Source: Candidatus Saccharimonadales bacterium (lineage in GTDB: Bacteria; Patescibacteriota; Saccharimonadia; Saccharimonadales; DATKHC01). From it: a stretch of DNA of 64,000 bases. Shown here one piece after another: positions 31,477 to 57,632 of this stretch. The DNA lies in the NCBI GenBank assembly GCA_035510465.1, contig DATKHC010000021.1, positions 130,876 through 194,875 of the forward strand, given 5' to 3'. The position numbers and the translations under genes are program-made. The first letter of the stretch is position 1. Each line of letters begins with the position of its first letter. A model generated the notes under the pieces. It saw only the letters and a program-made list of their open reading frames with translations, was not told the DNA's origin and made no database searches.

Positions 31477-31528
31477 TGCTGGCTTAAATAAACTTACCTA
31501 GCAACTGTATGAGCGTAAGTTGTAGGGT

Positions 31529-33460: not shown

Positions 33461-33464
33461 GTAA

Positions 33465-35723: not shown

Positions 35724-35894
35724 AGTTCATCTCTGGTGTAATCTTTTAGTCTTTGAGCCATCACATCTTTCTGCACTTATCAGCCAGCTTTATATAAGCA
35801 AGCGTTATGTTATCAAATCTAGCACACCGCCTCTGCTATTGCTAACAGAATGTTAGTGGTTTGCCTGTTGCTATAAGGATAACGTTGAATTAGC

Positions 35895-36128: not shown

Positions 36129-36334
36129 TTCTGACTTTTCTTTAGCAACGTAGCAATATCTTCACGACGGTAACGTCTATCTCGGCGTGTGCCAAATCGC
36201 ACCGCCGTGAGGTAGCCTTTTTTGTCCCACGCTCTTAATGTATTTGGATGACAATTCAAAATCTCACTCGCTTGTTTGAGAGTTAGCAACTTAGGTTCTT
36301 TTTTCCCAGATTGTGGCATACTATAACTATACAC
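36125..36334 (-). CDS. Excisionase/MerR-type HTH protein
   Basis: 69 aa. LLTLKQASEILNCHPNTLRAWDKKGYLTAVRFGTRRDRRY. Confidence 0.7.
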   Translation of the reverse strand: MYSYSMPQSGKKEPKLLTLKQASEILNCHPNTLRAWDKKGYLTAVRFGTRRDRRYRREDIATLLKKSQN

Positions 36335-36359
36335 TACTTAACGGTGTGAGAGCGATGTG

Positions 36360-37415
36360 ATGACAAGGCCAATTGATAAGTTGCTGGAATTATATGAAAT
36401 GCTATCTGACCTACGGCTGGTTACGCCAGGTGCTAAGTTAATTCAGCTCAACCCGATTAAAGATATTGATGCTAAGAAGTTTGACCGTCAGACGCTTGAA
36501 TATCTGTTTGAGCTATTAGAAAGTGACTACAAGGTTATCACTGTACATACACGACCTGATTATAAGAATGAGTTTCATTACCGTTTTGAAATAAATGACA
36601 ACTTTGACGAAGTGTACAATCGTATTTACGTATCAGCAAAATTCGGTGTCGGTAACCTGGACTGGACATCACTTCTCAGAGTTTACGAAGTAGCACTAGA
36701 TATTAGCAGCCAGTTGAAATTCACGACATCGGACACTGTAACGCTTATAATCCCGCCTGTATCAAGTCGTTTTTTAGCATCTCTCGCTTTTGATACAATT
36801 CCAGCGTTTCAGGCTGGTTACGAAAACGGCATCAAGTTTCTGCAAGAACAAGGTGTACTCGCCTCATATAAAACTTATTATGACCTGGATAGAAGCTATC
36901 GTGTCACAGTTAATCACATCCATCGTCCTAAGTTTGATAGGCTGATACGATTGCTGGCAATCAAGCATAAAGAGTTAGCGGGTGTTTACAAGCAAAGTCA
37001 ACCCCCACCTACAGAGGGACAGCCAGACAAAAAAAGAAACGAACAGCTCAAGAAACTTGAAACTATTTATAATGACGCTAAAGACGGAAACAAAATATCG
37101 GGGCAAGAAACAAATGATGTGCACCCTCTAGTAAGGTTTGACACTAAGACAAGTGTGCTCGTATTCGGCGATAAAACGTGTGATATACCAGACGAAACGC
37201 TAGAGCATTATATCTGTAAGTTCGCATTTAAGAACCGCCGTGTTGCTGCAAAAGAGGATGACATATTAGAGAAGACCGTAAAAAGCCAAGACAGCCAACG
37301 TGCTGTTTATGATGCGATGCTTAGGGTAAATAAAAAGGCTCGTGAGCAACTTGGTATTGAAAAACTACTAAAATATAAAGCCGCAAAAATACGAATTGAT
37401 AAAAAGTATCAGTAG
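36360..37415 (+). CDS. Hypothetical protein
   Basis: About 351 aa with no motif recognised. Confidence 0.6.
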   Translation: MTRPIDKLLELYEMLSDLRLVTPGAKLIQLNPIKDIDAKKFDRQTLEYLFELLESDYKVITVHTRPDYKNEFHYRFEINDNFDEVYNRIYVSAKFGVGNLDWTSLLRVYEVALDISSQLKFTTSDTVTLIIPPVSSRFLASLAFDTIPAFQAGYENGIKFLQEQGVLASYKTYYDLDRSYRVTVNHIHRPKFDRLIRLLAIKHKELAGVYKQSQPPPTEGQPDKKRNEQLKKLETIYNDAKDGNKISGQETNDVHPLVRFDTKTSVLVFGDKTCDIPDETLEHYICKFAFKNRRVAAKEDDILEKTVKSQDSQRAVYDAMLRVNKKAREQLGIEKLLKYKAAKIRIDKKYQ

Positions 37416-37500
37416 TAAACTGTGAGTGAAGTGTGAGCCAGTTAGCGTCTAAGTTGGGTCATTAGCCCTAAAAGTAGTCTTACGTTGTAAGGCTATTTTT

Positions 37501-37725
37501 ATGTCTACAAATAACCAACCACAACCAACAGAGCCACAAGAACAAGCCGCAAATAAAGGCGTGGCTGTTAAGTTGAGTGCGGAAGCACTACATAACTTGG
37601 CTGGCTGGTTTGATGTGCTCATTCAAATGGACTTAGCGCAAAAAGTACGTAATGAAATAAGGAGTAAAAACGATGAAAAGGCTGATATTCAAGATGCTTC
37701 AAGTAAGTCTAAGGAAGTGCATTGA
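37501..37725 (+). CDS. Small hypothetical protein
   Basis: 74 aa. Contains ..LHNLAGWFDVLIQMD.., loosely like the LSR-associated micro-ORFs. Confidence 0.45.
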   Translation: MSTNNQPQPTEPQEQAANKGVAVKLSAEALHNLAGWFDVLIQMDLAQKVRNEIRSKNDEKADIQDASSKSKEVH

Positions 37726-37788
37726 CTGGCTAATGACCTGTTGGCTATGGGTTAATAAGCACGAAAAATCCTTAGAGGAATGTAAAAG

Positions 37789-38100
37789 ATGAAAGTAAGC
37801 GAAGTAAACATTGTGCCGATAAAGGCGGTTGATGGCTTAGTTGCCTTTGCCAGTTGTGTAGTAAATAACGAGCTGTATCTTGGCTCTCTAGGCGTGCATC
37901 GCCGCTTAGACGGTTCTGGTTATCGTATAATCTACCCGACTAAACATATCGGGAAACGTGAGCTGAACTACTACAATCCAATAACTAAGGAAGCAGGTAG
38001 CGTAATTGAGCAAGCAATCGTTGCTAAGTGCCGTGAACTTTTTGAAAGAAGTGATGAAAATTATGGTAGACACAGTAAAACTACTACTGCCAATCAATGA
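37789..38100 (+). CDS. spoVG: SpoVG-family protein
   Basis: 103 aa. MKVSEVNIVPIKAVDGLVAFASCVVNNELYLGSLGVHRRLDGSGYRIIYPTK follows the SpoVG pattern. Confidence 0.65.
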   Translation: MKVSEVNIVPIKAVDGLVAFASCVVNNELYLGSLGVHRRLDGSGYRIIYPTKHIGKRELNYYNPITKEAGSVIEQAIVAKCRELFERSDENYGRHSKTTTANQ

Positions 38101-39181
38101 GCCGATGATACTGAGCAAAGGGGCGTTTGAGCCGCTAACAGTCGGGCAACTGGTAGGCACTTGGGGTACAAGTAGAACATACCTGAACCCCTCGCCTACC
38201 TACGCCAAAATAGGTAAATATATGCCAAGATTGACACTTTACAGACGACCAACCAAGACAATGGGTATTGTTTATCAGTTATCGGTTGAGTTTTCAGCTC
38301 CAAAGATGCTATTCATGCAGAACTTTGATGAGCTGACGGAAGCAGACTTTGAGCCATTACTGAAAGCATTGCGGGAAGCACTGCATGAACTGACAGGTCA
38401 TCAGTTTTTCCCTCATCAGTTGGCTAACGCCGTTGTAGCCTCATGGCATCCGTCTAAGAACATAGTGTTTTTAGACTACACTTCATGCCAGACGATACTA
38501 AACACTATCGCCAAATTAGATATAAGCCGTATCTACGACTTACAGCGTACCAACTTCCGTGACGGGCATGTTGTACATATACACTGCAACTCACTAGATA
38601 TTGCCTTTTACGATAAGATGGCTGATTTACGCCGAGGCAAAGTAAGTGAAAAACGGGCATTTGAAAATGATAATGCCATTCAACTGAACTTACTTGAGCC
38701 GTTGCAGCACATTAGCCCGATTGAGGTACTTCGCTATGAGGTACGTTTTGTTGGCAGAAAAGCTATCAAGCGAGCTTACCCCGATATTGAAAATCAAACA
38801 TTTAAGGCATTGTTCAAGAAGCAACTAAGCCAAGATATATTGCTTAAGCATTGGAATAAAATAACTAGCTCCATAGATATGTTGTCTCTGGATGAACGCC
38901 GTCCTTACGAGCTGTTCCAAAACTACCTGATTGACAACCCAGACGCTACACCACAGGCATCTTTAGCAGCAACAGCGGCATTGCTCATAAACGGGCAAGA
39001 GGGCATAAGGAACTTCCGTAACCTGCTTGAGGCTCGCTATAACCCAGATGCTTGGTATCGCATCAAAAAAACGCTCAAGACACCGCAGCAGCACCGCTAT
39101 ACACACTTCCAGCATGTAGATGAAGCACTAAAACAATTCACGCCCACTCGCATGAGTGATTATCTAAAATATATTGAATAA
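38054..39181 (+). CDS. Hypothetical protein, possible replication initiator (weak)
   Basis: About 375 aa. The start is uncertain (ATG 38054 or 38063; the track uses 38006). The N-terminus VDTVKLLLP is reminiscent of phage/plasmid Rep proteins. Functional confidence is low. Confidence 0.55.
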   Translation: MKIMVDTVKLLLPINEPMILSKGAFEPLTVGQLVGTWGTSRTYLNPSPTYAKIGKYMPRLTLYRRPTKTMGIVYQLSVEFSAPKMLFMQNFDELTEADFEPLLKALREALHELTGHQFFPHQLANAVVASWHPSKNIVFLDYTSCQTILNTIAKLDISRIYDLQRTNFRDGHVVHIHCNSLDIAFYDKMADLRRGKVSEKRAFENDNAIQLNLLEPLQHISPIEVLRYEVRFVGRKAIKRAYPDIENQTFKALFKKQLSQDILLKHWNKITSSIDMLSLDERRPYELFQNYLIDNPDATPQASLAATAALLINGQEGIRNFRNLLEARYNPDAWYRIKKTLKTPQQHRYTHFQHVDEALKQFTPTRMSDYLKYIE

Positions 39182-39219
39182 ACTAGTAACTTATGTTAAG
39201 TTAATAAGGAGTAACCATT

Positions 39220-40716
39220 ATGGAAACTAAAGTAATCTTAATCGCCAGAGTTTCAGACAAAGAGCAACGTAAAGCGTTGCCCGCTCAAAAACAAAGACTT
39301 GAAAACTATGCCAATGATGTACTAAATAAGCCTTTCAAGTATTACCAGTTTGACGAAAGTGCCTATAAAGACGACAGACAAAAGTTCGCCTCGCTGATTG
39401 AGGATAAAATCCAATCACTAAAACACCCTGCCATTATCGTATTTGATAAGATTGACCGCTTTACCCGTGACGCATCCCAACGTGAGGTACGGATAATAAG
39501 TACTTTAGTAGAAAAAGGTAGTATTGAAATACACTTCCCGTCTGACAACCTATTCATTACCAAAAACTCACCTGCAACTGATTTGTTCAGGCTCGGTATC
39601 GGTATGCTACTGGCAAAATACTACTCAGATGCCAGTCGGGATAATGTCAAACGCCGATTTGAACAGATGCTAACCGATGGTATTTGGGTACACCGTGCCC
39701 CTATTGGCTACAAGAACATCATTGTAGGCGGCACACCACAAAGACCAATTAAAGGCATTGAGGTTGATGACGAAAAATCCCCTCACATCTTGAAAGCCTT
39801 TGAGATGAGAGCACTTGGCACACCCTACGAGATAATCGCTAGGCAGCTCAATGAGGACGGTTTCCGAACCAATGCGGGTAATAGAGCAACCAGAGGCTAT
39901 ATTGAACGAACACTAAACAACAAGTTTTATTATGGCAAGATGGTACATGGCGACAGAGAATACGACCATCATTACCCGCCAATCGTTAGCCAAGCACTGT
40001 TCAGAGAGAGCCAACGGATTAGAGAGCACCGCAAGCATGAAAAGACCAAGTACGACAGTAAAGACTACGCTTTCAAGAAAATCGTAAAGTGCGGCAAGTG
40101 TGGACGCTCAGTATCGCCGTTTAAGGCTCGTAACACAGTTTACTTGAGATGTGCCAACAACCATTGCGTTAATCCAAATACAGCCGTATCGCTTATAATA
40201 GACGGCGTGACTGATGACGTTTGTAATGTAGATGTACCTGAAAACTGGATTGACCAAGTTATTGCCGAGTTACGCAAACGCCACGATAACCAGCAGCTAT
40301 ACTTCACACAGAACATTGAAACTGCCCGTGCTGAGTACGACAAAATCAAAGAAAAGATGCGTAAGTTGTACTACGACCTACTTGAGGGACGTATTACTCA
40401 GCCTTTCCATGACGAAATTGCAAATGAACTTGAAGCAAGACAGCAGGAACTTAACGATAGGCTCAAGATGCTAACAAGTGATAATAAGTCATTCCAAGTG
40501 ACTGCTTCTTATCTGTTGGACTTGGCTCAGCGAGCCGAAAAGCTGTTCAAAGAGAGCGATGAGGGTTTGCAGCAAAAACTTTTAGACTACGTACTTTCAA
40601 ACATTGAACTTAACGACAAAAAGTTGTCATATATACTAAACGAACCCTTTAGAACGATAGTTGAGGCAAAGAAAAAAGCCCTTTCAGGCTCAAATCCAAA
40701 CTTATGGTGCGAGTGA
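39220..40716 (+). CDS. Large serine recombinase; stop codon lies inside the tRNA-Gly 3' end
   Basis: 498 aa. LIARVSDKEQ motif, zinc ribbon CGKCGRSV..LRCANNHC and a coiled coil. It ends ..NPNLWCE*, with TGG TGC GAG TGA being the antisense of the tRNA CCA end and acceptor stem. Confidence 0.9.
   Translation: METKVILIARVSDKEQRKALPAQKQRLENYANDVLNKPFKYYQFDESAYKDDRQKFASLIEDKIQSLKHPAIIVFDKIDRFTRDASQREVRIISTLVEKGSIEIHFPSDNLFITKNSPATDLFRLGIGMLLAKYYSDASRDNVKRRFEQMLTDGIWVHRAPIGYKNIIVGGTPQRPIKGIEVDDEKSPHILKAFEMRALGTPYEIIARQLNEDGFRTNAGNRATRGYIERTLNNKFYYGKMVHGDREYDHHYPPIVSQALFRESQRIREHRKHEKTKYDSKDYAFKKIVKCGKCGRSVSPFKARNTVYLRCANNHCVNPNTAVSLIIDGVTDDVCNVDVPENWIDQVIAELRKRHDNQQLYFTQNIETARAEYDKIKEKMRKLYYDLLEGRITQPFHDEIANELEARQQELNDRLKMLTSDNKSFQVTASYLLDLAQRAEKLFKESDEGLQQKLLDYVLSNIELNDKKLSYILNEPFRTIVEAKKKALSGSNPNLWCE
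40668..40690 (-). terminator. Putative terminator of tRNA-Gly, embedded antisense in the LSR coding sequence
   Basis: Minus sense: AGCC-tgaaag-GGCT followed by TTTTTCTTTG, 14 nt after the tRNA 3' end. The T-run is the antisense of Lys codons (..AKKKAL..). The stem is weak. Confidence 0.4.
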
Positions 40717-40780
40717 CGGGATTCAAACCCGTGGCCTCTTCCTTGGCAAGGAAGCGCTCTATCAGCTGAGCTACACTCGC
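40705..40780 (-). tRNA. tRNA-Gly (anticodon GCC), CCA encoded
   Basis: Manual fold: acceptor GCGAGTG/CACTCGC, anticodon stem CTTCC/GGAAG with loop TTGCCAA, T arm with GGTTTGAATCC. Confidence 0.9.
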
Positions 40781-48668: not shown

Positions 48669-48697
48669 ACATTGATAATTACTATAGCAAAACACAA

Positions 48698-48870
48698 CAA
48701 AAACCCCTGAATTAACAAGGGTCATAATGCTTATGGTGGAGCACCTCCAAAATAATTCACCCCTCATATTTGATGAAATAAGGAGATAGAGGTATTTACT
48801 CTGGGATGAGTACCTATATTTCCAACAGAGTAAAACTAGCTTTAAGAAGGTAGGTATCCCCTGATGGTAT
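48698..48870 (+). repeat. ssrA-array junction unit 1 (hairpin, LSR-end remnant, core 48734-48742, tail arm with nonsense codon)
   Basis: Tail frame reads MVEHLQNNSPLIFDEIRR*, with TGG changed to TAG at 48787-48789. Hairpin cccctg..caaggg lies at 48704-48721. Confidence 0.65.
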
Positions 48871-49452
48871 TCACTTCTGGCTTAAGCTTAATTGCCTAGT
48901 TCTAATTACGAGTAGGCTAAAGATAGCTGTAGAGACAATTACACTATAGACAGGAACTACAAGCAACTTTGCGTCCAATTTTCCAACAGATATCGAACCG
49001 AATATACCAGCTACACTTGTAGTAAACCAGCTTAAATGCGTCTCTGTATTAGGTTTAAAATAACCTTTTTTAACTGTAGGAATATAGCTTAAGGTTGATA
49101 CTAATAGGTTACAATACAACGACACCAGAGGTGTTTTAAGTATCCACCATAGGAGAAGACCTATTATTGCACCACTTAAGCATAGGATGTCCAGTTTAGC
49201 GAAGCCACCAACTCCTTTTTTAATTGATAGAAGAAATACTACCAACGTTATTAGTATCCACGATACAACTAAATATAGAGAACTTCGTGCTCCCAAAGAC
49301 CACTGATTTGCTAAATAGATGAGATTAAGCGTAAGAAATAATAACCATGATATTCTATGTGGTTTAGTCTTACCTTTTACGGTGTCTAATATATACGGAA
49401 TGTCACCAAGTATATAAATAATGCCACCTATAATTCCTATGATTGCAAACAT
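48871..49452 (-). CDS. Polytopic membrane protein (cassette gene)
   Basis: 193 aa with about 6 TM helices. No family assigned. Confidence 0.65.
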   Translation of the reverse strand: MFAIIGIIGGIIYILGDIPYILDTVKGKTKPHRISWLLFLTLNLIYLANQWSLGARSSLYLVVSWILITLVVFLLSIKKGVGGFAKLDILCLSGAIIGLLLWWILKTPLVSLYCNLLVSTLSYIPTVKKGYFKPNTETHLSWFTTSVAGIFGSISVGKLDAKLLVVPVYSVIVSTAIFSLLVIRTRQLSLSQK

Positions 49453-49477
49453 GCATAAATAGTATCAGAAACAATAA

Positions 49478-49656
49478 AAGTGGCCTCCAAAAACAGGGGT
49501 CATAATGCTTATGGTGGAGCACCTCCAAAATAATTCACCCCTCATATTTGATGAAATAAGGAGATAGAGGTATTTACTCTGGGACGACTATATTTACTAT
49601 AAACAGGAGAAAGAAGGGTCTAAGGAGATAGCGGTCCGCTGAGGTTATTCGCACAC
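49478..49656 (+). repeat. ssrA-array junction unit 2 (core 49512-49520, tail arm with nonsense codon)
   Basis: Nearly identical to unit 1 across the core and first ~95 nt of the arm. Same TAG at 49565-49567. The hairpin is degenerate. Confidence 0.65.
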
Positions 49657-49941
49657 TTAGAAAGGGCTGATGGATACATGGCTAAGCATCACTACGGCCC
49701 CAACAAAAGAGAAAACGCATAGTAACGTGCTGATAACAGCGGCTTTATTTTTTGCTTTAATTAGCCATATTAAATTCAGAATTAATAATATGGGTAGTAA
49801 AAAATCAAAATAGGCGTTGGTAGATGGAGGATTAAGACTATTTCTATAAAGTACGACTATCCCGATTTCATATAAGTTGTACAGAGCATATAGGATCGTT
49901 ACACATATAAGTACTTTTTCAATTTTATTTATTTTAACCAT
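49657..49941 (-). CDS. Small membrane protein (cassette gene)
   Basis: About 94 aa with 3 hydrophobic helices. ATG 49941 is preferred over the track's GTG 49965. Confidence 0.55.
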   Translation of the reverse strand: MVKINKIEKVLICVTILYALYNLYEIGIVVLYRNSLNPPSTNAYFDFLLPILLILNLIWLIKAKNKAAVISTLLCVFSFVGAVVMLSHVSISPF

Positions 49942-49965
49942 ATGGATAATAATACCAAAAGTCAC

Positions 49966-50150
49966 AAAAATGACCTCACTTTAGAGAGGTCATAATGATA
50001 TTGGTGGAGCACCTCCAGAATAATTCACCCCTCATCTTTGATGAAATACGGAGATGGAGGTATTTACTCTGGGATGATTATATTTACTTTAAACGAGACG
50101 AAAGGCTTAAAGAGCTGTCCATCCCCTAGGGGTTATCACACTTTTTTATA
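49966..50150 (+). repeat. ssrA-array junction unit 3 (core 50002-50010, intact 42-codon tail)
   Basis: Tail frame 50001..50129 reads LVEHLQNNSPLIFDEIRRWRYLLWDDYIYFKRDERLKELSIP*. The hairpin atgacctc..gaggtcat at 49970-49993 has a different sequence from units 1 and 4 but the same position. Confidence 0.65.
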
Positions 50151-50221
50151 TACTCAGCCTTACTTGGTTTTACGTCTAGAAATGTGCCCTGGAATAAAGA
50201 ATACAGAAGCAATTACTGCTA

Positions 50222-50443
50222 TTACCAACCCGTAGAACACGTAAAATAAAATCCTATCCCACTAAGACCAGCAGTGGTATCCTCGGCGGCGTTAGGATGC
50301 TTGATGCCTATAATAAGAAAATAAACTGCATATCCAAAGAATAAGGCCGCAATGACGTATCCTAAAATTCCAACATAAAACAATATCGAGCCGAACATTT
50401 TCTTCGTGGAAATCGATTGTTTAGTAAAGTTACTAGTCGGCAT
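50222..50443 (-). CDS. Small membrane protein (cassette gene)
   Basis: 73 aa with two hydrophobic helices. Confidence 0.5.
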   Translation of the reverse strand: MPTSNFTKQSISTKKMFGSILFYVGILGYVIAALFFGYAVYFLIIGIKHPNAAEDTTAGLSGIGFYFTCSTGW

Positions 50444-50482
50444 TCTCTCGAAATCATATACTTTTAGGTCATTTCGTGCAAC

Positions 50483-50667
50483 AAAAAACCCCTGAATTCA
50501 CAGGGGTCATAATGCTTATGGTGGAGCACCTCCAAAATAATTCACCCCTCATCTTTGATGAAATAAGAAGATGGAGGTATTTACTCTGGGATGATTATAT
50601 TTACTATAAACGGAGGCGAGAACAGCCTAAGGAGATAATAGTCCGCTAGGGGTATACGCCCACCTAT
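50483..50667 (+). repeat. ssrA-array junction unit 4 (core 50519-50527, intact 43-codon tail)
   Basis: Tail frame 50518..50649 reads MVEHLQNNSPLIFDEIRRWRYLLWDDYIYYKRRREQPKEIIVR*. Hairpin cccctg..cagggg lies at 50489-50506. Differences from unit 3 include synonymous CAA/CAG and AGA/CGG. Confidence 0.65.
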
Positions 50668-51369
50668 TTATAATAAAACTAGCGTTGCTATTCTTAAACA
50701 GTACCCGAACAATATGTCGTCAAAAACCTCTTGACCCAATTTCTCTTTGTTCTTGCGTATCTGGTCTTCACTACTACCCTTAATCTGATAAACCTCATTC
50801 ATAATTCTCGTAAACACTTCAGTCGTAACGTTTAATGCTAGGTTATAAATGCTGTTAAGGTATCGCTCAAACTCATTTGGTGCAATTAATGTATACTTCT
50901 TATAGCTTGATTTCCACAGCAACGAATATGCTCCATATTCTAAACCTCTACTTATTGGGTCATCTGAAAAAATCTCATACTTATCCTTGTCTTCTTCCTT
51001 CATAAACTCTCGAATATGTGTAGCCAAATCTTTTCTGTTTATAGCGGTCTTCTTGCCTTTGATTTCTTCGGTAACCCTTAATGAATATCCAGCCAACATA
51101 TTAGCCCCGTACTGCCCGAAGAGTGGGTTAAGGTCAAACCCTGATTGAACGCCAACCGAAGGCAGTCCCTGACTTAGTTGTGCTTGCATTTGGTAGTATT
51201 GTTTCTCTTGTTTTGACTGTATGGTAGCTTCGGCTTTACTAGGCAGTAACTTACTCCTATTTAGCTCGTCATTTGAGTGGAGTAAGCTATCTACTGAATT
51301 AAATATGTCATTAAACTTATTGTCTTTTACGTTTGGGTCATTGGGTGTAACAAAAATCGGAGTGTCCAT
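50668..51369 (-). CDS. Hypothetical protein
   Basis: 233-aa ORF with no motif recognised. Confidence 0.55.
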   Translation of the reverse strand: MDTPIFVTPNDPNVKDNKFNDIFNSVDSLLHSNDELNRSKLLPSKAEATIQSKQEKQYYQMQAQLSQGLPSVGVQSGFDLNPLFGQYGANMLAGYSLRVTEEIKGKKTAINRKDLATHIREFMKEEDKDKYEIFSDDPISRGLEYGAYSLLWKSSYKKYTLIAPNEFERYLNSIYNLALNVTTEVFTRIMNEVYQIKGSSEDQIRKNKEKLGQEVFDDILFGYCLRIATLVLL

Positions 51370-51440
51370 TATTACTTATCTTAACAGACAAGTTTTAGGA
51401 GATACTTGATTGTGTTATAACATCACTTCACAATAGACAC

Positions 51441-52109
51441 ATGATGCAAAATCGTAAAGAGTTAAGACCAATAGGTAGCAAGCTTAAACCCACTAAAGCT
51501 GGTAAGCCAATTTCATATTCTGACCATATAACCTTCGAAGAGCTTGTATCCGAAATTCAGATGCTCGTAAGTAGCAAGAGCAATACTGTGGTTGTCGCTA
51601 TATCAGGCTTTGGAGGTGCTGGGAAAACGACTTTAGCCGAAAAACTTAAAAATCGCTTTCACGGCTCAACATGGATTCAGCTCGATAACTTTATTGTAAA
51701 CAGAACTAAGGGTGATGATTGGGATTCAGGCTACGACTGGAGTCGGCTCGAGAGAGTCCTAAGGGACGTTCGAGCTGATAAGGAGCTACACTACCAATTC
51801 TATGACTGGCATAAAGACGCTCTTACGGGCTGGATAGATGTAAGCCCGCTACCAAAACTAATTATTGTCGAGGGCATTCGTCTGTTACAGCCAAAGTTCA
51901 TGACCTACTTTGACCTAAGCGTGTGGATTGACTGCCCTATTGAAGTAGCTGCAAAGCGTGGCATAGAGCGGGACAGAAAAAACGGAGTAGATAACCAGCA
52001 CATACTTGAGTGGGAGAAAAACTGGATACCAAAAGACAAAACATTCTACGAAATGTACAGACCTGACGAAAGTGCCAGTTTCTTAGTCGAGTCTCATATC
52101 ACTGACTGA
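51441..52109 (+). CDS. P-loop kinase, uridine kinase/PRK-like
   Basis: Walker A ISGFGGAGKTTLAEKL and the later IIVEGI segment, typical of the Udk/PRK family. Confidence 0.6.
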   Translation: MMQNRKELRPIGSKLKPTKAGKPISYSDHITFEELVSEIQMLVSSKSNTVVVAISGFGGAGKTTLAEKLKNRFHGSTWIQLDNFIVNRTKGDDWDSGYDWSRLERVLRDVRADKELHYQFYDWHKDALTGWIDVSPLPKLIIVEGIRLLQPKFMTYFDLSVWIDCPIEVAAKRGIERDRKNGVDNQHILEWEKNWIPKDKTFYEMYRPDESASFLVESHITD

Positions 52110-52164
52110 TCATACCAAAAGCACGAATATTATAGATCTCTACGTTCGTGTCGTGCATTCTATC

Positions 52165-52203
52165 CTGGTGGAGAATATTCAAAATAATTCAACCCTCATC
52201 TAG
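52165..52203 (+). repeat. ssrA-array junction unit 5 (truncated)
   Basis: ctggtggagaatattcaaaataattcaaccctcatctag reads LVENIQNNSTLI* in the recombinase frame. This is a protein-level variant of LVEHLQNNSPLIF, cut off where gene 52200..52844 ends. Confidence 0.5.
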
Positions 52204-52844
52204 ATACAGACGTCTTTTCCCAAATGAGTGAGATATTGCCTGTCCCACCATAAAAAACGTAAGTAGGCTCCGTATCCAAGTTGTGCTTCGCTACTGGATG
52301 CTTTTAGAATGTTTCTTGTAAATTCTTGTTTACCCTTTTTTACAGATTCAGAAGCTGATTTACCTTTTAGAAGGCTAACCACAACTTGATTAGATGGGTC
52401 TAGAAATAACGCAGCTGTTTTATCTGTCCTTGGTTTGGACGTTGTTCCACCCTCACTAAAAAAGATAAAATCCTGAGTATAGCCAATAAAGCTTTTAGCA
52501 CCTTTTTTAATTGTTTCGGGGCCAAGTTGTGCTGCTGACTTGCAAGAAACAGCATATGCAATCGTACCTTTAAGTATTTTGGAGTTATCCATATCCAAAA
52601 GCACTTCTTCGTCTTGGCCAGTAACACAATGTTCGGCACCATGACCGTTCATAAATATCAAATCTGGAGACATTTTGGTGACGATACTCTCAAACTCTTT
52701 TCTATTAGCACGCTTTTTATCTAACTTTAAGACGTTAACGCTTCTTCTTTCAGCATATTGAATTAACGACTTTGCCCAAGCTGCTAAATATCTAGTTGTC
52801 GGTTCATAGTCTGGCATTGTCACCAAGACTGTCTTGTTGCTCAT
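52200..52844 (-). CDS. Hypothetical protein with a caspase-like His/Cys dyad pattern
   Basis: Start at ATG 52844, with SD gagggtga upstream. The segments IFMNGHGAEH and AYAVSCKSAA resemble the H-G ... C arrangement of C14/CHAT-type peptidases. The assignment is weak. Confidence 0.5.
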   Translation of the reverse strand: MSNKTVLVTMPDYEPTTRYLAAWAKSLIQYAERRSVNVLKLDKKRANRKEFESIVTKMSPDLIFMNGHGAEHCVTGQDEEVLLDMDNSKILKGTIAYAVSCKSAAQLGPETIKKGAKSFIGYTQDFIFFSEGGTTSKPRTDKTAALFLDPSNQVVVSLLKGKSASESVKKGKQEFTRNILKASSSEAQLGYGAYLRFLWWDRQYLTHLGKDVCI

Positions 52845-53058
52845 GGTCGTAAATATCACCCTCTTTTAATGCCCGTAAAAATTCAATATCTACTTCTATA
52901 ATCTTCTTACCTATTTCATCCCCGTCTTCGACATGTTTTAGTAGCTGGATTTTATCGATTGTGCCTACATCTCCAATCGAGATACTTGCATCAGCCGGTA
53001 AAGCCTGTAGCCTTGCTAGAACAAGCTTCTGGAATTCCTTATCCAATTCGGTCTGCAT
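52804..53058 (-). CDS. Hypothetical small acidic protein
   Basis: 84 aa, in an operon-like arrangement with its neighbours. Confidence 0.45.
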   Translation of the reverse strand: MQTELDKEFQKLVLARLQALPADASISIGDVGTIDKIQLLKHVEDGDEIGKKIIEVDIEFLRALKEGDIYDHEQQDSLGDNARL

Positions 53059-53241
53059 CTAAATTAACCCCATTTCAATCAACTTCTTCATTATAGTCTT
53101 ACCTAGTGCCGTCTCATTTATAATTTCTACGTATGCTGCGTTCCACGTTAGTGGACCAACCTCATCAAGTACTACGACAATTTCATTACGAGCTGCGATA
53201 GGCAGATTCGCATAGACTTTTTGAAACCGTGATATATCCAT
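53059..53241 (-). CDS. Hypothetical small protein
   Basis: 60 aa. It abuts the next ORF, with the stop directly followed by the next ATG. Confidence 0.4.
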   Translation of the reverse strand: MDISRFQKVYANLPIAARNEIVVVLDEVGPLTWNAAYVEIINETALGKTIMKKLIEMGLI

Positions 53242-53540
53242 GATAATTTTACTTATTTTATGTATCCTACTTCAAAATATACCATATATTGCTTATGTTT
53301 AACTGAAGTAACAGATGTAAACTATGTTTACCGTAACCTATACATTTGACTTTGTCAAATATACTCAACCAATTAATCTAGTGATTTAAACAGAGTGTCG
53401 CACAATGTGCATTTTCGGACTCGCACTAACAGAGGTTGGTGGCGTTTTTTATCATATAAGAGCCTTGTCAAGGGCGACACTTATTTAACTCCGCCTCTGT
53501 TAAAAGACATATCATAACACATTCGCTTTTTGGCTATATA

Positions 53541-54449
53541 TTAGCAATTAATTGCGGCCAGTTGCGATTGATAACTTTGCTGAAGCTCTTGGCTTTGTTG
53601 TGTGTAGCTCTGTTCTAGCTCGGAGATTTGCTGCTGGCCAACTCCAGAACTTTCAATTCCTTCCTGCCCCAACTTAGTCTCTAGAGCCGACAGGGCTGCA
53701 CTTTCTTGGTCGCCAAGGTTAGTCTGGTTCGCTTGGTATTCCGAGGAATCCTCAGCTTTTAGTTGTTCGTTACAAGTTGGAGGCGCTGGTGTAGTGGTTG
53801 TGTTTGTTGGCGCAGGCTGAGTCGTAGTGCCAGTACTAGCAATAGGTGTATTTGACATAGGACTTGAAGCGTAATCAGTCGGGGTTGTTTGCAACGTATA
53901 AGGTGTATATGAATAGGTTGGCAATGTAACCCCAGCGACAGTATTACTTTGGGTAGAGGCTACAGGTATATTTGAAGTAATATTGTTGATATCACTAATC
54001 TCAGCTTGGGTGAAGTTCTGTTCATTTTTAACATTGTCTAGGCATCCTTGGAGGATTTGTTCACCAGTAGATGCAACGTCTAGAACTTTTTGGTTGGTCG
54101 TTAAAATGCCTTGTGCTGCAATGAGGTTTGCCGTGTTACTAGACCAAGCAGGTTCTTTGATTAATTGTCCTATCTGATTAGTTTCAGAGTTAACTTGCCC
54201 AATTACGGAGTTATATTTGCTCATGTCATCGTTACATATTTTTTGTAAGTAAGCATATTGATAACCTGACTGTGTGCCTAATGATGCTAAGCTTACGACT
54301 TGCTTAGGAGATGTCTTTGGGTGAAATACAACTAGACCAATACTGGCTGCGGATATGATAAGAACGCTTAAACCAACCAGGAATTTACGCCTAGTCTTTC
54401 TTTTCTTTCGTTCTCTGTTAATTGAGTCTAAAAAACTTGTATCAGCCAT
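53541..54449 (-). CDS. Membrane-anchored Q/S/T-rich protein
   Basis: 302 aa. TM FLVGLSVLIISAASIGLVVF, then low-complexity T/Q-rich and coiled-coil-like regions. Confidence 0.6.
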   Translation of the reverse strand: MADTSFLDSINRERKKRKTRRKFLVGLSVLIISAASIGLVVFHPKTSPKQVVSLASLGTQSGYQYAYLQKICNDDMSKYNSVIGQVNSETNQIGQLIKEPAWSSNTANLIAAQGILTTNQKVLDVASTGEQILQGCLDNVKNEQNFTQAEISDINNITSNIPVASTQSNTVAGVTLPTYSYTPYTLQTTPTDYASSPMSNTPIASTGTTTQPAPTNTTTTPAPPTCNEQLKAEDSSEYQANQTNLGDQESAALSALETKLGQEGIESSGVGQQQISELEQSYTQQSQELQQSYQSQLAAINC

Positions 54450-54878
54450 ATAACTACTTACTATCCTTGCTATTTGTTGACTCCGAGACTTAAAAGCTCG
54501 CCACTAAGCGAAACCGAAGTCTCTGTAACCGTTTCCAGCTACAACTACAACGAAGAGTACTCAATGACGAGCTGTCTTTCGTTGTAGATTTATTGACCAT
54601 GCCATTAAAGAATGGTTTAGGTTGAAGTGGTAAAACCACTTAATTGAAATTATACATCTAGTTGCTTAGTTGCGCCGATAGACCATGTTGAACCTAGTTA
54701 AGTACCTATAAACATATTGATTAGCAATGTTTCGTGTAGCGCCCAAAAAAATAACAAATAGTACCCATAAAACAAATATGGGGAACACCCCTGTCAGATA
54801 TATATCTAATCCATCTCTTACGCCGTTCTGGTACGGTACCAAACGTATCCCTATTTAATAGGGGTCGATAAACAAAGC

Positions 54879-55337
54879 TTAGTTATTCTCTGGCCAGACT
54901 GCTTTAAGTAGAGCTACTTCATCATTTCTGTCTGAGGCTAGTTTTATAGCTTTCTGTTGGTCGGGTGTGTATATATCGTTATTATAAGGATTCAGTGCAT
55001 TTTGCTTGCTAATTAACTCTTTTTGGCTTTGCATTTCTTTGACTATACGAACTAGACTGTTTGTCTCTATTAAATAGGGGTCGTCTAGCCTCTTTTCGAG
55101 CTCTCTAAGGGCTTTTAAGTGAACTCTCGTAACAATGTCTGTATCTGACTTACTAATAGCCTTTTTCATCTGTAGTAGTACGGGGTTATTCCGCTTTTTT
55201 ATCTTCTTAATAGTTGACATCGGAACGCTTGTCTTAACACTCACGTCCGCGTACCTATAACCCAAGGCAATTAGCTTGACTACATTGCGTTCTACGTCAG
55301 GCTTTGTTCGTAGGTGATGTATTTGAAGATTACTCAT
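54879..55337 (-). CDS. HTH DNA-binding protein (element regulator)
   Basis: 152 aa. KLIALGYRYADVSVKTSVPMSTIKKIKKR is an HTH-like segment. Confidence 0.5.
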   Translation of the reverse strand: MSNLQIHHLRTKPDVERNVVKLIALGYRYADVSVKTSVPMSTIKKIKKRNNPVLLQMKKAISKSDTDIVTRVHLKALRELEKRLDDPYLIETNSLVRIVKEMQSQKELISKQNALNPYNNDIYTPDQQKAIKLASDRNDEVALLKAVWPENN

Positions 55338-55443
55338 ACTTTAAAGTGTTATACACTTCGCGAGACTTGACAATTATCAGGTCTGATGAAAAATCGTGGA
55401 GCTGATGGTTATATTGGATTAATCATTGTGCGAGAGTAGCCAC

Positions 55444-55572
55444 ATGAGCACTAGCGCAAAGGCTGTGGCTAACGTGCCAGAAGACCCACTTATACCCGAG
55501 AACTATGAAAAAACTGATTTAGATGAACTGTGTTTATGGCTTTATGATATATACGAGGAATCAATAACTTAA
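55444..55572 (+). CDS. Micro-ORF upstream of the LSR (42 aa), candidate accessory factor
   Basis: ..LDELCLWLYDIYEE.. shares the helix motif with 15265 and 31529. Below the track cutoff. Confidence 0.35.
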   Translation: MSTSAKAVANVPEDPLIPENYEKTDLDELCLWLYDIYEESIT

Positions 55573-55704
55573 CTATTTGAATATATTAGGGGAAGAGCTC
55601 GGCATGAAGATTACCACTGTTACTCAAAAATATAAATGGCAGCCCAAAAATGTCTTTGCTGAGTCATTCCCTTGGACTGCTATTCATCTGTTTGAGGTCA
55701 CAAT

Positions 55705-57321
55705 ATGAAGGAACAAGGTATAGCACTATGTCGTATTTCCTCCGATGACCAAATTAAGGGTCATAGCCTTGAGGCTCAAGACACTAGCACCAGGAAAGCA
55801 GCCAATAGTATCGACGTTGAGTTAATTAAGACTTGGACGGAAGTTAAGTCAAGCAAAAAAGGTAAAAACTTTGGAAGAAAAGATTTGGAAGAAATGCTAC
55901 GTTTTTGTAAACAAAACAAACGCGTTAAATACCTTTTTATAGATTTCATGAGCCGCTTAATGCGAGAGGTTGAAGTAATGATTTACTATAAGGTACTGTT
56001 CAACCAAATGGGTGTGAAATTACATTTTTGTGACCCTTCACAACAGCACCTTAACGGAGAAGACCAAATCGCTCAACTTATGCGATTAATAGAGGGTTAC
56101 AAATCGGAAACAGAAAATACAGCCAGACAAGAAACAACTATTGCTCGAATGAAAGCTCGGTATGAGGCTGGTTACTATATTTCACACCCACATCAGGGTT
56201 ATATAAAATCAGATGTGGCTGGTGTGCACATCCCTGACCCAAAGAGATTCGATTTATTACAAAAAGGTGGTCGTTTGATGATTTACGAGCAGCATAGCGT
56301 TCAGCAAGCAATCAAATGGATGAATGAAAACGGATATTTAACATTAGGCGGTAGACCACTCGACTTAAATCACTATATAGAATTTATTGTAGATAGATAT
56401 TACTGTGGCATTATTGATATACAGTCAGAGGGTTGGCCTAAAGATATACTCGGATTACATCAACCCATGTTTACGCAACGCGAACATAAAATACTTTCCG
56501 CTTTAATAACGAAGCGGAATCCACGCGTTAGACAAGCACACAATCCCGACTTCCCAATGTCTAATATTATTAGGCATAAGGAGTGCGAGGGTATTGGACG
56601 TTACGAAAAGTTTACTGGTCATATTTACAATCGAGGGAAAAGGCCTAGTGGTAGTCAAAGACCATTAAAGCCGGTTTATGATTGCCGAGATTGCAGACAA
56701 CGGATACAGAGGGATAAGGCGCACTCCTCTCTCACACACTACTTAAGCAAATTAAACCTACTGCCTGACGAAAAGCACTTTAAAGAGGCTTTGATTCGTG
56801 TCTGGAGAAGTCAAAGAGGTTCTCAATCCCAGAGACTTAACAGTCTACAGGGCAATAAGGTTAGGATTGAGCAGAAAATAAGAGAAACTGCTGCTATTTA
56901 CGCTTCTGAACAAGATGAATCCATTAAACAATCACTTGGCTTACTGTTAAAAGACTACGATGCTCAATTGAAGCAAATTGATACAGACGTTACCAGCAAT
57001 AAAAACTTAGAAATAGAGTCAGAAGATTTCGTCCGTTTCGCTATGGACTTCGTGGCTAACCTCAAGAATAAATGGTGGAAATTAAGCTGGGATAACATTG
57101 CGAGGGGTGAACAAGTTTTATTTAACGGCAAAATTTACATTGATAATTCTGCAAAAGTTCACACCCCCAATTTAAGCTCAATTTACAGATTAGGGACAAA
57201 CAAAAAAGCACTAGAAAATGCTTCTAATGCTCATTTGGTGGAGCTGCCGGAGTACTGCCCTCCGGGTCCGCTAGCTTACTGTAGCCAATCTTCTACGAGT
57301 GTAGGTCATTTAGATAAGTAA
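55705..57321 (+). CDS. Large serine recombinase; its 3' end overlaps the tmRNA antisense
   Basis: 538 aa. IALCRISSDDQ motif, Cys pairs (..YDCRDCRQ..) and a coiled coil. The last ~28 codons (..HLVELPEYCPPGPLAYCSQSSTSVGHLDK*) are the antisense of the tmRNA 3' domain. Confidence 0.9.
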   Translation: MKEQGIALCRISSDDQIKGHSLEAQDTSTRKAANSIDVELIKTWTEVKSSKKGKNFGRKDLEEMLRFCKQNKRVKYLFIDFMSRLMREVEVMIYYKVLFNQMGVKLHFCDPSQQHLNGEDQIAQLMRLIEGYKSETENTARQETTIARMKARYEAGYYISHPHQGYIKSDVAGVHIPDPKRFDLLQKGGRLMIYEQHSVQQAIKWMNENGYLTLGGRPLDLNHYIEFIVDRYYCGIIDIQSEGWPKDILGLHQPMFTQREHKILSALITKRNPRVRQAHNPDFPMSNIIRHKECEGIGRYEKFTGHIYNRGKRPSGSQRPLKPVYDCRDCRQRIQRDKAHSSLTHYLSKLNLLPDEKHFKEALIRVWRSQRGSQSQRLNSLQGNKVRIEQKIRETAAIYASEQDESIKQSLGLLLKDYDAQLKQIDTDVTSNKNLEIESEDFVRFAMDFVANLKNKWWKLSWDNIARGEQVLFNGKIYIDNSAKVHTPNLSSIYRLGTNKKALENASNAHLVELPEYCPPGPLAYCSQSSTSVGHLDK

Positions 57322-57632
57322 TTAGAGAGCAAACGACCAAAAACTAACTACTTGTGTCCTAAATCTTTACAATACTTACGGACAGTAAGCACTGTGCATC
57401 CAGATAAATTGACACGAATATACATTATCTGACGTCATGCAAATCCGTGGCTCCAGAAATTAAACTGAAGCTAGTGCGTATTGACGAGGAACAAGGTTCT
57501 TTACAGAATCCTTGACCCAAGCTACTGCGCTAGATACTTTTGTTGCATCTACATTGGTTTGCCGTATAACGCTCAGCCAGCGACTCGCTGATATAGCTTG
57601 TAAGGTCCAACGTCGAGCTTAAAATCAGCCCC
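57236..57632 (-). ncRNA. ssrA: tmRNA (SsrA)
   Basis: The 5' end GGGGCTGATTTTAAGCTCGACG and 3' end ..CGGAC-CCGGAG-GGCAGTA-CTCCGG-CAGCTCC-ACCA match canonical tmRNA ends (E. coli ends ..GGAC..CAGCTCCACCA). The acceptor stem has a G3:U pair. The internal tag ORF ends ..PRQYALASV-TAA. Confidence 0.85.

What the first reader, a model, noticed from the sequence alone, without database searches (positions are those of the whole stretch)
48698..57632. Array of five ~170-bp junction repeats sharing the last 9 nt of tmRNA, ending at an LSR fused antisense to ssrA
TGGTGGAGC (antisense of the tmRNA 3' end GCTCCACCA) occurs at 48734, 49512, 50002 and 50519, with a degenerate copy at 52166. The real ssrA end is at 57236, inside the LSR 55705..57321 ORF. 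In the array, each core is preceded by a short remnant resembling the LSR end (ataatgcttaTGG versus ctaatgctcatTTGG) and a hairpin. Each is followed, in the LSR frame, by a tail ORF VEHLQNNSPLIFDEIRRWRYLLWDDYIY... Units 3 and 4 keep the tail intact and differ by synonymous changes (CAA/CAG; AGA/CGG, both Arg). Units 1 and 2 carry the same TGG-to-TAG nonsense change. Unit 5 is a diverged, truncated variant (LVENIQNNSTLI). The core with its flank forms an imperfect dyad, TGGTGGAG|CACCTCCA, as expected for a serine-recombinase crossover site.
Basis: partly seen in the sequence, partly recalled or inferred. Interest (0 to 1): 0.8.

Follow-up and report, generated by a model that had tools for sequence, protein, structure and literature searches.

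The report
Serine-recombinase gene-cassette array at the tmRNA gene
In this Saccharibacteria genome, a large serine recombinase inserts DNA at the last bases of the tmRNA gene; five ~190-bp junction scars, each carrying the recombinase's own detached 42-codon C-terminal end, mark a stack of four tiny recombinase-less gene cassettes plus one recombinase-bearing element.

Summary
**Observation.** Confirmed. Four ~190-nt repeats and one truncated copy share TGGTGGAGC, the antisense of the tmRNA 3' end. The tmRNA (57236-57632, minus strand) ends inside the large serine recombinase (LSR) ORF 55705-57321.

**Interpretation.** Supported and extended.
- The "tail ORF" is the LSR's native C-terminal helix. 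At least 11 LSR homologues carry it fused in frame. It shows codon-periodic purifying selection (pN/pS 0.35) and no RNA covariation.
- Insertion at the tmRNA gene (ssrA) therefore cuts the LSR gene about 42 codons before its stop.
- The LSR's last coding stretch also supplies, on the opposite strand, the tmRNA's terminal bases and a terminator.
- Each unit is the right arm of an outer cassette, the core, and the left arm plus tail of the next cassette inward.

**Comparison with relatives.**
- Related Saccharibacteria usually have one unit per element.
- One genome has eight LSR-less cassettes after its tmRNA, and three close relatives hold different cassettes at the same site.
- The tRNA-Gly gene in this same window carries a parallel stack.

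**Closest known.** The Dehalococcoides ssrA islands (DsiB) are the nearest precedent, then SCCmec/psiSCC. This is a new variant of a known kind.

**Not shown.** Trans-mobilisation of the cassettes, the exact crossover position and the function of the tail are all inferred.

The parts
48694..48885 (+). Unit 1, the outermost junction. Minus-strand terminator hairpin at 48702-48723, linker TCATAATGCTTA, core TGGTGGAGC at 48734-48742, and tail ORF at 48736-48864 with an in-frame TAG at 48787-48789.
48871..49452 (-). Cassette 1 cargo: a 193-aa multi-pass membrane protein. The gene is real, with 18 homologues. Relatives also sit in or at the tmRNA arrays of L039 and L025.
49472..49663 (+). Unit 2. 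Hairpin arm, core at 49512-49520, and a tail with the same TAG at 49565-49567. Its first 80 nt after the core are identical to unit 1.
49657..49965 (-). Cassette 2 cargo: a 102-aa hydrophobic ORF. Homologues were not tested.
49962..50153 (+). Unit 3. Hairpin with compensatory stem changes (GACCTC...GAGGTC), core at 50002-50010, and an intact tail ORF running to 50129.
50222..50443 (-). Cassette 3 cargo: a 73-aa hydrophobic ORF. Homologues were not tested.
50479..50670 (+). Unit 4. Terminator hairpin at 50487-50508, core at 50519-50527, and an intact tail ORF at 50521-50649 (VEHLQNNSPLIFDEIRRWRYLLWDDYIYYKRRREQPKEIIVR*). This is the most plausible functional left end for the resident LSR element.
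50668..52109 (.). Cassette 4 cargo: a 233-aa ORF at 50668-51369 (minus strand) and a 222-aa P-loop kinase-like ORF at 51441-52109 (plus strand; PRK/uridine kinase family).
52120..52203 (+). Unit 5, degenerate. Hairpin-like arm, core TGGTGGAGA at 52166-52174, and a tail cut off after 12 codons (LVENIQNNSTLI*). Four of the six bases next to the core are changed.
52200..55337 (.). Cargo of the LSR-bearing element. ORFs of 219, 84, 60, 302 and 152 aa on the minus strand, with no family assignments, plus a LOOT RNA (RF03000) at 54510-54623 on the minus strand.
55426..55708 (+). Two small ORFs (48 and 43 aa) just upstream of the LSR gene and overlapping its start. They are conserved in nearly all related elements. 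They are candidate regulators or directionality factors; this is inferred.
55705..57321 (+). Large serine recombinase, 538 aa. Homology to relatives ends at about residue 516. The last about 27 codons are read antisense through the tmRNA 3' end.
57196..57235 (-). P arm inside the LSR coding sequence. On the minus strand it forms a terminator hairpin (57232-57206) plus a T-run, immediately after the tmRNA CCA end. The protein stretch it encodes is predicted to be disordered.
57236..57244 (+). Core at the occupied site (attR): TGGTGGAGC, which is the tmRNA 3' end GCTCCACCA.
57236..57632 (-). The tmRNA gene (ssrA), complete. A promoter-like site TTGCAA-17-TATAAT lies at 57671-57643.

Best explanation
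The region is an accretion array at the 3' end of the tmRNA gene, built by a clade of large serine recombinases (LSRs) whose attachment site lies inside their own gene.

**Shown**
- In this LSR clade the ORF continues across the attachment site into a conserved C-terminal helix of about 42 residues (...VEHLxxSSPLIxEEIxRWRxLLWDDY...P*).
- At the tmRNA junction the LSR is instead read antisense into the tmRNA, which gives a variable, unconserved end.
- The tail stays at the far (left) junction of the element.
- The last about 40 nt of LSR coding sequence encode, on the other strand, the terminal bases of the tmRNA followed by a terminator hairpin and T-run.
- Each array unit consists of a right arm of about 40 nt (A-run, hairpin, TCATAATGCTTA), the 9-nt core, and a left arm carrying the tail.
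- The stack in this window is four LSR-less one- or two-gene cassettes (0.5-1.6 kb) followed by a 5.1-kb LSR-bearing element next to the tmRNA.

**Inferred**
- Elements insert one after another at the tmRNA-proximal junction. Each brings a new tmRNA end and terminator and pushes older ones outward, where their cores and tails decay.
- The small cassettes are non-autonomous. They are moved in trans by a resident LSR, or in cis together with a neighbouring element.
- The tail swap changes LSR activity between the free and the integrated state.
For: **The tail is protein.**
- Entropy by codon position is 0.49/0.21/0.82.
- pN/pS is 0.35 across 28 units and about 0-0.1 among the window's units.
- The tail frame has 2 stops, against 29-70 in the other frames.

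**The tail is fused in frame to LSRs.**
- P0048 and P0049 carry it.
- So do nine more 50%-identity clusters, some only about 30% identical to the window LSR. All keep E-I-x-R-W-R-x-L.
- AlphaFold2 gives an LSR body, a disordered linker at residues 530-555, and a tail helix at 552-582 with pLDDT 73-84.
- The model matches solved LSR-DNA complexes.

**The standard single element.**
- In the full-length LSR loci (L003-L012, L032) there is one unit 4-10 kb upstream of an LSR whose end abuts the tmRNA; several also keep MarR and ksgA to the right.
- All LSR ends carry an A-run and hairpin, and the scan calls them terminators.

**LSR-less cassettes elsewhere.**
- L039 has a tmRNA followed by eight units with 631-1276 nt spacing and no LSR in 20.7 kb. 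Inner tails are intact; outer tails and cores are degraded.
- L025 has two cassettes. L023, L018 and L027 have one each, with unrelated 0.8-0.9 kb cargo between conserved flanks.
- L044 holds a homologue (61% identity) of an L039 cassette gene, also flanked by units.
- The same hairpin-TCATAATGCTTA arm abuts the tmRNA itself in L023 and L039.

**Tandem junctions between full elements.** At 33341 in this window, the LSR2 end is joined through a TGGTGC core to the left arm of the LSR3 element, which abuts tRNA-Gly.
Against: - Canonical LSRs recombine only attP with attB. Serial insertion next to an already occupied site needs either relaxed site choice or a right arm that behaves as a bacterial-type half-site. 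Neither was tested.
- No circular form or empty site was observed. The contigs with LSR-tail fusions are short and linear, so they could be chromosomal junctions between neighbouring elements rather than free circles.
- Unit 5, the junction that belongs to the resident LSR element, is the most damaged. This does not fit the simple decay gradient.
- Some LSR-less elements clearly arose by decay: L024 keeps a 60-aa LSR stub and L010 a 42-nt stub.
- Cassette gene families also occur outside arrays (L036-L038, L045).
- The dyad symmetry is weak.
Confidence: 0.72

Rival explanations
1. Graveyard model. Every cassette is the remnant of a once complete LSR element that integrated on its own and then lost its recombinase and most of its cargo by deletion. 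The cassettes were never mobile as small units. Selection for a working tmRNA end and terminator explains why the right arm survives.
For: - L024 retains only the last 60 aa of an LSR next to the tmRNA.
- The left arm of the L010 unit is a 42-nt LSR-end relic.
- The right arms resemble LSR ends: A-run, hairpin, ATAATGCTYA.
- Outer units have stops, truncations or mutated cores.
- Saccharibacteria have reduced genomes (general knowledge).
Against: - About 18 cassettes in six genomes fall in a narrow range of 0.5-1.6 kb, with ORFs that fill them.
- The left boundary of the right arm is the same within an array.
- Three close relatives each hold a different LSR-less cassette at the same site.
- An eight-cassette array has no LSR nearby.
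- Related cassette genes sit at different array positions in different genomes.
Confidence: 0.3
2. The tail is expressed on its own from each unit as a small protein of about 44 aa (MLMVEHLQ...). In LSR-less arrays it acts in trans, for example by complementing or regulating a tail-less integrated LSR.
For: - The hairpin-linker arm creates in-frame ATG codons directly before the core (ATAATGCTTATGGTGGAG). The 3' half of the hairpin (GAGGT/GGGGT) is Shine-Dalgarno-like and lies 5-11 nt upstream.
- Tails stay open in the inner five units of the LSR-less L039 array.
Against: - No promoter was identified on that strand.
- Native left arms in other genomes lack the ATG and SD arrangement.
- Units 1 and 2 carry a stop.
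- The tail is demonstrably part of full-length LSR ORFs.
Confidence: 0.1
3. The units are a structured non-coding RNA, a terminator or 3'-UTR repeat family, or a local tandem duplication unrelated to site-specific recombination.
For: - Each unit ends, on the minus strand, in a hairpin plus T-run.
- The hairpin shows compensatory changes between units.
- The units lie 3' of the minus-strand cassette genes.
Against: - RNAalifold on 28 units gives -7.5 and -5.1 kcal/mol, with no compensatory pairs on one strand and a single compensatory pair on the other.
- The coding signature is strong.
- The same sequence continues LSR ORFs in frame.
- Intervening genes are unrelated, so this is not a duplication.
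- Every unit whose flanking context is readable lies downstream of a tmRNA gene.
Confidence: 0.03

Closest known systems
Dehalococcoides ssrA-specific genomic islands with the serine recombinase DsiB (McMurdie et al. 2011, PMC3146451)
   Same: - An LSR of about 540 aa integrates islands at the tmRNA gene.
- Its 3' end always overlaps the attachment site, so its stop codon lies in ssrA or in the neighbouring island.
- Islands are stacked in tandem downstream of ssrA.
- Fifteen islands lack an integration module.
- The authors already speculated that the recombinase is complete only on the circle or next to an island that supplies the 3' fragment.
   Different: - There the crossover is in the T-loop and leaves a 20-bp repeat. 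Here only a 9-nt core at the acceptor/CCA end is shared.
- There the integration module has six genes (DsiA, RecF-like, ParB, Mom and others). Here only two tiny ORFs are conserved.
- There the variable C-terminus was judged non-functional and no conserved tail was reported. Here the detached tail is a conserved helix under purifying selection.
- Here the stacked units are miniature cassettes of 0.5-1.6 kb, the host is a Saccharibacterium, and the element end also encodes the terminator.
- Sequence relatedness to DsiB was not tested.
SCCmec and psiSCC composite islands (CcrAB serine recombinases). From my own knowledge and as summarised in PMC3146451.
   Same: - LSR-family recombinases insert at the 3' end of a conserved single-copy gene.
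- Tandem composites form, bounded by short direct repeats.
- These include elements without recombinase genes.
   Different: - The target is rlmH (orfX), not a tRNA-like gene.
- Two recombinases (CcrA and CcrB) are needed.
- The elements are tens of kb.
- The recombinase gene is not split by integration.
Integrons (my own knowledge)
   Same: - Arrays of single-gene cassettes of about 0.5-1.5 kb are separated by a recombination-site repeat.
- Arrays grow at one fixed end, next to a strongly transcribed unit.
- Most cassette genes share one orientation, roughly 16 of 22 counted by eye. Outer cassettes appear older.
   Different: - Integrons use a tyrosine recombinase acting on folded single-stranded attC hairpins.
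- Here the sites are LSR-type double-stranded sites with no conserved long hairpin.
- The anchor is the tmRNA 3' end, and the repeat carries a piece of the recombinase gene.
Tycheposons and island build-up at tRNA/tmRNA genes in Prochlorococcus (10.1101/2020.12.28.424599)
   Same: Repeated integration at the same tRNA or tmRNA gene pushes older elements into the island, leaving partial tRNAs and degraded integrases. A minority use large serine recombinases.
   Different: - They are mostly tyrosine recombinases with about 40-nt tRNA repeats.
- The elements are larger and carry replication genes.
- No split recombinase gene is described.
Integration-dependent switches of mycobacteriophages such as BPs and Brujita (my own knowledge)
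   Same: The attachment site lies inside a coding sequence, so integration changes that protein's C-terminus.
   Different: There the gene is the repressor and the integrase is a tyrosine recombinase. Here the recombinase's own gene is cut.

Membership tests
Large serine recombinase (serine integrase) elements | N-terminal resolvase catalytic domain with a serine nucleophile | tested here: met
   PF00239, E = 3e-13. phrog_95 integrase, E = 2e-29. The R10/S12 motif (CRISSDDQ) is near-invariant in the alignment.
Large serine recombinase (serine integrase) elements | Recombinase domain, zinc ribbon and long coiled coil following the catalytic domain | tested here: met
   PF07508 is recorded in many homologues. 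The AF2 model of P0048 has coiled-coil helices at 388-491. Its top fold matches are SPbeta, Bxb1, phiC31 and A118 integrase-DNA complexes, E = 1e-15 to 1e-9.
Large serine recombinase (serine integrase) elements | Short attachment sites made of imperfect inverted half-sites around a central dinucleotide | tested here: inconclusive
   The best symmetry centre is GTGGAG|CACC, but only 10.4 of 24 positions match. A variant in L011/L002 hints at a crossover further left, in TGG.
Large serine recombinase (serine integrase) elements | Free (attP) form and integrated (attL/attR) forms both observed | tested here: inconclusive
   attL and attR are seen in more than 15 loci. LSR-core-tail joins exist, but on linear contigs, so they could be junctions between neighbouring elements.
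Large serine recombinase (serine integrase) elements | A recombination directionality factor for excision | not testable with these tools
   Two conserved small ORFs upstream of the LSR are candidates only.
Dehalococcoides-type ssrA genomic islands (DsiB) | Integration at ssrA, with the LSR 3' end overlapping the attachment site | tested here: met
Dehalococcoides-type ssrA genomic islands (DsiB) | A 20-bp direct repeat of ssrA produced by a crossover in the T-loop | tested here: not met
   Only 9 nt (GCTCCACCA) are shared between the units and the tmRNA. The sequences diverge immediately beyond that.
Dehalococcoides-type ssrA genomic islands (DsiB) | Six-gene integration module (DsiB, DsiA, RecF-like, ParB, Mom and others) | tested here: not met
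   Only the LSR and two ORFs of 43-48 aa are conserved among the elements. No second serine recombinase, ParB or Mom was found.
Dehalococcoides-type ssrA genomic islands (DsiB) | Tandem islands that include integrase-less members | tested here: met
   The window, L039 and L025.
Dehalococcoides-type ssrA genomic islands (DsiB) | Sequence homology of the recombinase to DsiB | not tested
Integrons | IntI tyrosine recombinase | tested here: not met
   The only recombinases here are serine recombinases.
Integrons | attC sites that fold as single-stranded imperfect hairpins | tested here: not met
   No conserved hairpin spans the unit. Only a short terminator stem is present in the arm.
Integrons | Array of short, mostly one-gene cassettes separated by site repeats at a fixed insertion point | tested here: met
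   Spacings are 490-1647 nt in the window and 631-1276 nt in L039. Every array whose flank is readable lies next to a tmRNA gene.

The most novel reading that the evidence does not exclude
Saccharibacteria possess an integron-like gene-cassette system run by a large serine recombinase instead of a tyrosine recombinase.

- The tmRNA 3' end is the fixed insertion point.
- Each 0.5-1.6 kb cassette carries a site of about 190 bp. The site combines a tmRNA-end and terminator mimic with a detachable 'exon' for the recombinase's C-terminal helix.
- Cassettes are captured, shuffled and perhaps expressed by read-through from the tmRNA promoter.
- Gain or loss of the C-terminal helix on excision or integration is a built-in switch of recombinase activity or direction. 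Cassette-borne tails could restore the helix to an integrated LSR, either in cis or as a free peptide.
Probability: 0.3. Interest if true: 0.85.

Novelty: new variant of a known kind. Interest (0 to 1): 0.62.

Why it matters
- **A testable example of an open question.** It gives a sequence-defined case of a serine integrase whose own gene is cut by integration. A conserved C-terminal helix is present only when the site is rejoined. That makes a question left open for Dehalococcoides DsiB directly testable: does the C-terminus control activity or direction?
- **Gene turnover in reduced genomes.** Ultra-small Saccharibacteria can keep a turnover zone of single-gene cassettes (membrane proteins, toxin-antitoxin pairs, methyltransferases, defence genes) at tRNA-like genes. 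This bears on how these epibionts vary their surface and defence repertoire.
- **Tools.** The family offers compact natural sites and a possible natural directionality switch of interest for integrase-based genome engineering.

Tried and rejected
- ARAGORN did not call the tmRNA. Rfam did.
- The structured-RNA reading was tested on both strands and rejected.
- Local duplication was rejected, because the intervening genes are unrelated and the units differ by 14-24%.
- A scan of viral contigs for the unit pattern found nothing.
- Pfam and PHROGs gave no families for most cargo ORFs or for the two small conserved ORFs.
- No LSR or small-ORF relics were found inside the window's cassettes.
- A terminal-overlap test for circularity of the LSR-tail contig L001 was negative. 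L002 was not checked, because the script failed before reaching it.
- Contexts of homologues of the 193-aa cassette gene in L036-L038 and L045 showed no units. The gene family is therefore not confined to arrays.
- The profile search meant for the tail alone also kept the LSR body columns. Tail-bearing hits had to be picked out by the matched range and then read.
- The symmetry analysis did not fix the crossover.

Full report
**1. Observation**

The 9-mer TGGTGGAGC occurs five times on the + strand, at 48734, 49512, 50002, 50519 and 57236. Only 0.25 matches are expected, and no shuffle reached five. Rfam finds a complete tmRNA at 57236-57632 on the minus strand (71 bits). ARAGORN missed it. 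The ORF 55705-57321 is a 538-aa serine recombinase (Resolvase domain; phage-type integrase family). It overlaps the tmRNA 3' end by 86 nt in antisense.

The repeat finder reports four 188-nt copies and a fifth 36-nt copy at 52166. The window comes from a Candidatus Saccharimonadales MAG; a cassette protein is 100% identical to VMR34_05500.

**2. Anatomy of a unit**

Read on the + strand, each unit has four parts:
- an A-run and a hairpin of variable sequence, with compensatory changes in unit 3;
- the linker TCATAATGCTTA;
- the core;
- about 130 nt of conserved sequence ending in a motif TCCCCTrrGGGTATACACCC that contains the stop codon.

On the minus strand, the hairpin followed by a T-run scores as an intrinsic terminator in units 1, 3 and 4. 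The same arrangement sits inside the LSR coding sequence at 57232-57206, directly after the tmRNA CCA end.

**3. The tail is the recombinase's own C-terminus**

Most of the 84 LSR homologues end in ...NAHLVEL(A/V/P)GTAPAS..., which is the antisense reading of a tmRNA 3' end. P0048 and P0049 instead continue ...NAHLVEHLEKSTPLIFEEIRRWRYLLWDDYIEYK...VVP, which is the array's tail. A search of 1.84 billion representative proteins found nine further clusters of LSRs or LSR fragments with an in-frame tail. Some are only about 30% identical to the window protein, yet all keep E-I-x-R-W-R-x-L.

Across 28 distinct units from 24 loci the tail behaves as coding sequence:
- Variability by codon position is 0.49/0.21/0.82.
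- pN/pS is 0.35 overall and about 0-0.1 among the window's four units.
- The tail frame has two stops in total, both the window's TAGs, against 29-70 in the other frames.

AlphaFold2 on P0048 gives a normal LSR body with a long coiled coil. It also gives a low-confidence linker at residues 530-555, which is the part encoded by the terminator, linker and core. Residues 552-582 form a helix at pLDDT 73-84. The model matches solved serine integrase-DNA complexes. RNAalifold on either strand gives weak structures with essentially no compensatory pairs, one at most. The structured-RNA alternative is therefore rejected.

**4. The usual element**

In about a dozen other Saccharibacteria loci there is a single unit 4-10 kb upstream of an LSR whose end abuts the tmRNA. 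In several of them MarR and ksgA lie beyond the tmRNA. Two small ORFs upstream of the LSR are conserved, while the cargo is not.

At these left junctions the arm differs from genome to genome but is always an A-run plus hairpin, which I read as the displaced native tmRNA terminator. At the right junctions the LSR end always carries its own A-run and hairpin. The element therefore replaces both the last bases of the tmRNA and its terminator, using sequence that also codes for a disordered stretch of the LSR.

**5. Arrays and recombinase-less cassettes are not unique to this window**

- L039 (GCA_036787835.1) has a tmRNA followed by eight units at 631-1276 nt spacing. Each interval holds one or two genes: a HAD hydrolase, a methyltransferase, a MazE/PemK pair and several unknowns. 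No LSR lies within 20.7 kb. The five inner tails are open. The three outer tails are degraded, and three cores in the array (two of them in outer units) are mutated.
- L025 has two cassettes and no LSR.
- L023, L018 and L027 are relatives of the window organism. They share the left flank, the unit and the tmRNA side, but each has a different, unrelated cargo of 0.8-0.9 kb in between.
- In L023 and L039 the hairpin-TCATAATGCTTA arm lies directly against the tmRNA. This arm is therefore the right end of a cassette. Each array unit is the right end of the outer cassette, the core, and the left end of the next one inward.
- The 193-aa membrane protein of cassette 1 has 18 homologues. Three of these are array-associated at different positions, and others lie in ordinary contexts.
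- A homologue of an L039 cassette gene is again flanked by units in L044.
- Units cluster by genome.

**6. A parallel stack in the same window**

tRNA-Gly (40705-40780, minus strand) is overlapped in antisense by a third LSR (39220-40716). Its element reaches back to 33341. There the end of LSR2 (31795-33357) is joined through a TGGTGC core to that element's left arm. LSR2's own element reaches to 26107, where a homologous tail ORF lies. A further junction at 25227 bounds a 0.9-kb toxin-antitoxin-like cassette.

In L023 the LSR2 orthologue abuts tRNA-Gly directly. Junctions of the type 'end of one element - core - start of the next' therefore do form between complete elements in this family.

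**7. Mechanism**

Shown:
- The recombinase gene runs across its own attachment site.
- The tmRNA-side junction gives it an unconserved antisense-coded end.
- The conserved helix stays at the other junction.
- The element's end supplies the tmRNA terminus and a terminator.
- The array is a series of such junctions separating LSR-less cassettes and one LSR element.

Inferred:
- Insertion is serial at the tmRNA-proximal end, with outward ageing. The support is the decay gradient in L039 and the stops in units 1 and 2.
- The cassettes move in trans, or in cis together with a neighbour.
- The tail swap has a regulatory role.
- The crossover lies within the core. One variant (GAGGAGC in an LSR-tail form and in one left junction, against GTGGAGC at that element's tmRNA junction) hints at the TGG (CCA) part. 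So does the shorter TGGTGC core of the tRNA-Gly family. The dyad centre at GTGGAG|CACC is only weakly supported.

**8. Problems for this account**

- Canonical serine integrases do not recombine an attP with an occupied junction.
- No circles were seen, and the LSR-tail contigs are linear.
- Unit 5, which belongs to the resident LSR element, is the most damaged. The element may be fixed in place, or it may use unit 4 as its left end.
- Some LSR-less elements are clearly decay products (L024, L010).

**9. Comparison with known systems**

The closest precedent is the family of Dehalococcoides ssrA islands (PMC3146451). It shares an LSR overlapping its site and ssrA, tandem islands and integrase-less islands. 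Its authors also suggested that the recombinase may be complete only on the circle.

The differences are the crossover position and repeat length, the lack of the six-gene integration module, the conserved and selected tail, the built-in terminator, the miniature cassette size and the host phylum. SCCmec/psiSCC composites, tycheposon-built islands, integrons and integration-dependent phage switches share individual features only.

I found no paper describing this in Saccharibacteria, but the searchable library is limited.

**10. Verdict**

The system is a new variant of a known kind. Two aspects appear new: a conserved, detachable recombinase C-terminus, and integron-like arrays of single-gene cassettes at tRNA-like genes of an ultra-small bacterium.

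Noticed in passing
window 25227-40780: tRNA-Gly(gcc) is a second accretion site, with junctions that share the core TGGTGC.

- 25227: cassette-type arm plus left arm type b.
- 26107: tail-like ORF VQRVGKSFHLIRDEIARWREILEVPYQEYLLNN*.
- 33341: LSR2 end joined to left arm type b.
- 40705: LSR3 end (ORF 39220-40716) overlapping tRNA-Gly in antisense.

The order is a 0.9-kb PIN/AbrB-like toxin-antitoxin cassette, then the LSR2 element (7.2 kb), then the LSR3 element (7.4 kb), then the tRNA. In the relative L023 the LSR2 orthologue (92% aa identity) abuts tRNA-Gly directly.
   Followed up: partly
window 15411-17171 and 7360-8961: Two more large serine recombinase genes, both with Resolvase, Recombinase and Zn-ribbon domains. 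The ORF 15411-17138 (+) overlaps the 3' end of tRNA-Leu (17086-17171, minus strand) in antisense by 53 nt, the same layout as at tmRNA and tRNA-Gly. That makes five LSR genes in 64 kb.
   Followed up: partly
window 29125-29245 (+), 54510-54623 (-); L032 9517-9629: LOOT RNA (RF03000) lies inside both the LSR2 element and the tmRNA-site LSR element, and inside a related element in L032, upstream of the LSR. It was not found in six other related loci. It looks like an element-borne small RNA.
   Followed up: partly
L012 5230; L008 7554; L003 1688: Displaced tmRNA 3' fragments of 20-60 nt lie further out than the LSR unit. These are marks of a different island type with a crossover deeper in the tmRNA, at the same gene.
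   Followed up: no
end of every unit, e.g. window 50637-50660: A conserved motif TCCCCTrrGGGTATACACCC spans the tail's stop codon. The blocks TTCACCCCTCAT and TTTACTCTGGGA are invariant even at third codon positions. This points to a DNA-level constraint beyond coding, possibly protein-binding sites.
   Followed up: no
window 48734-48812 vs 49512-49590: Units 1 and 2 are identical for about 80 nt after the core, including the TAG, and then diverge sharply. This suggests gene conversion or exchange between units within the array.
   Followed up: no
L032 3048-11540: A full 8.5-kb element of this family carries defence-type cargo: AbiTii, DUF4238 and a 982-aa protein. A DUF5681 gene lies upstream of the LSR.
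   Followed up: no
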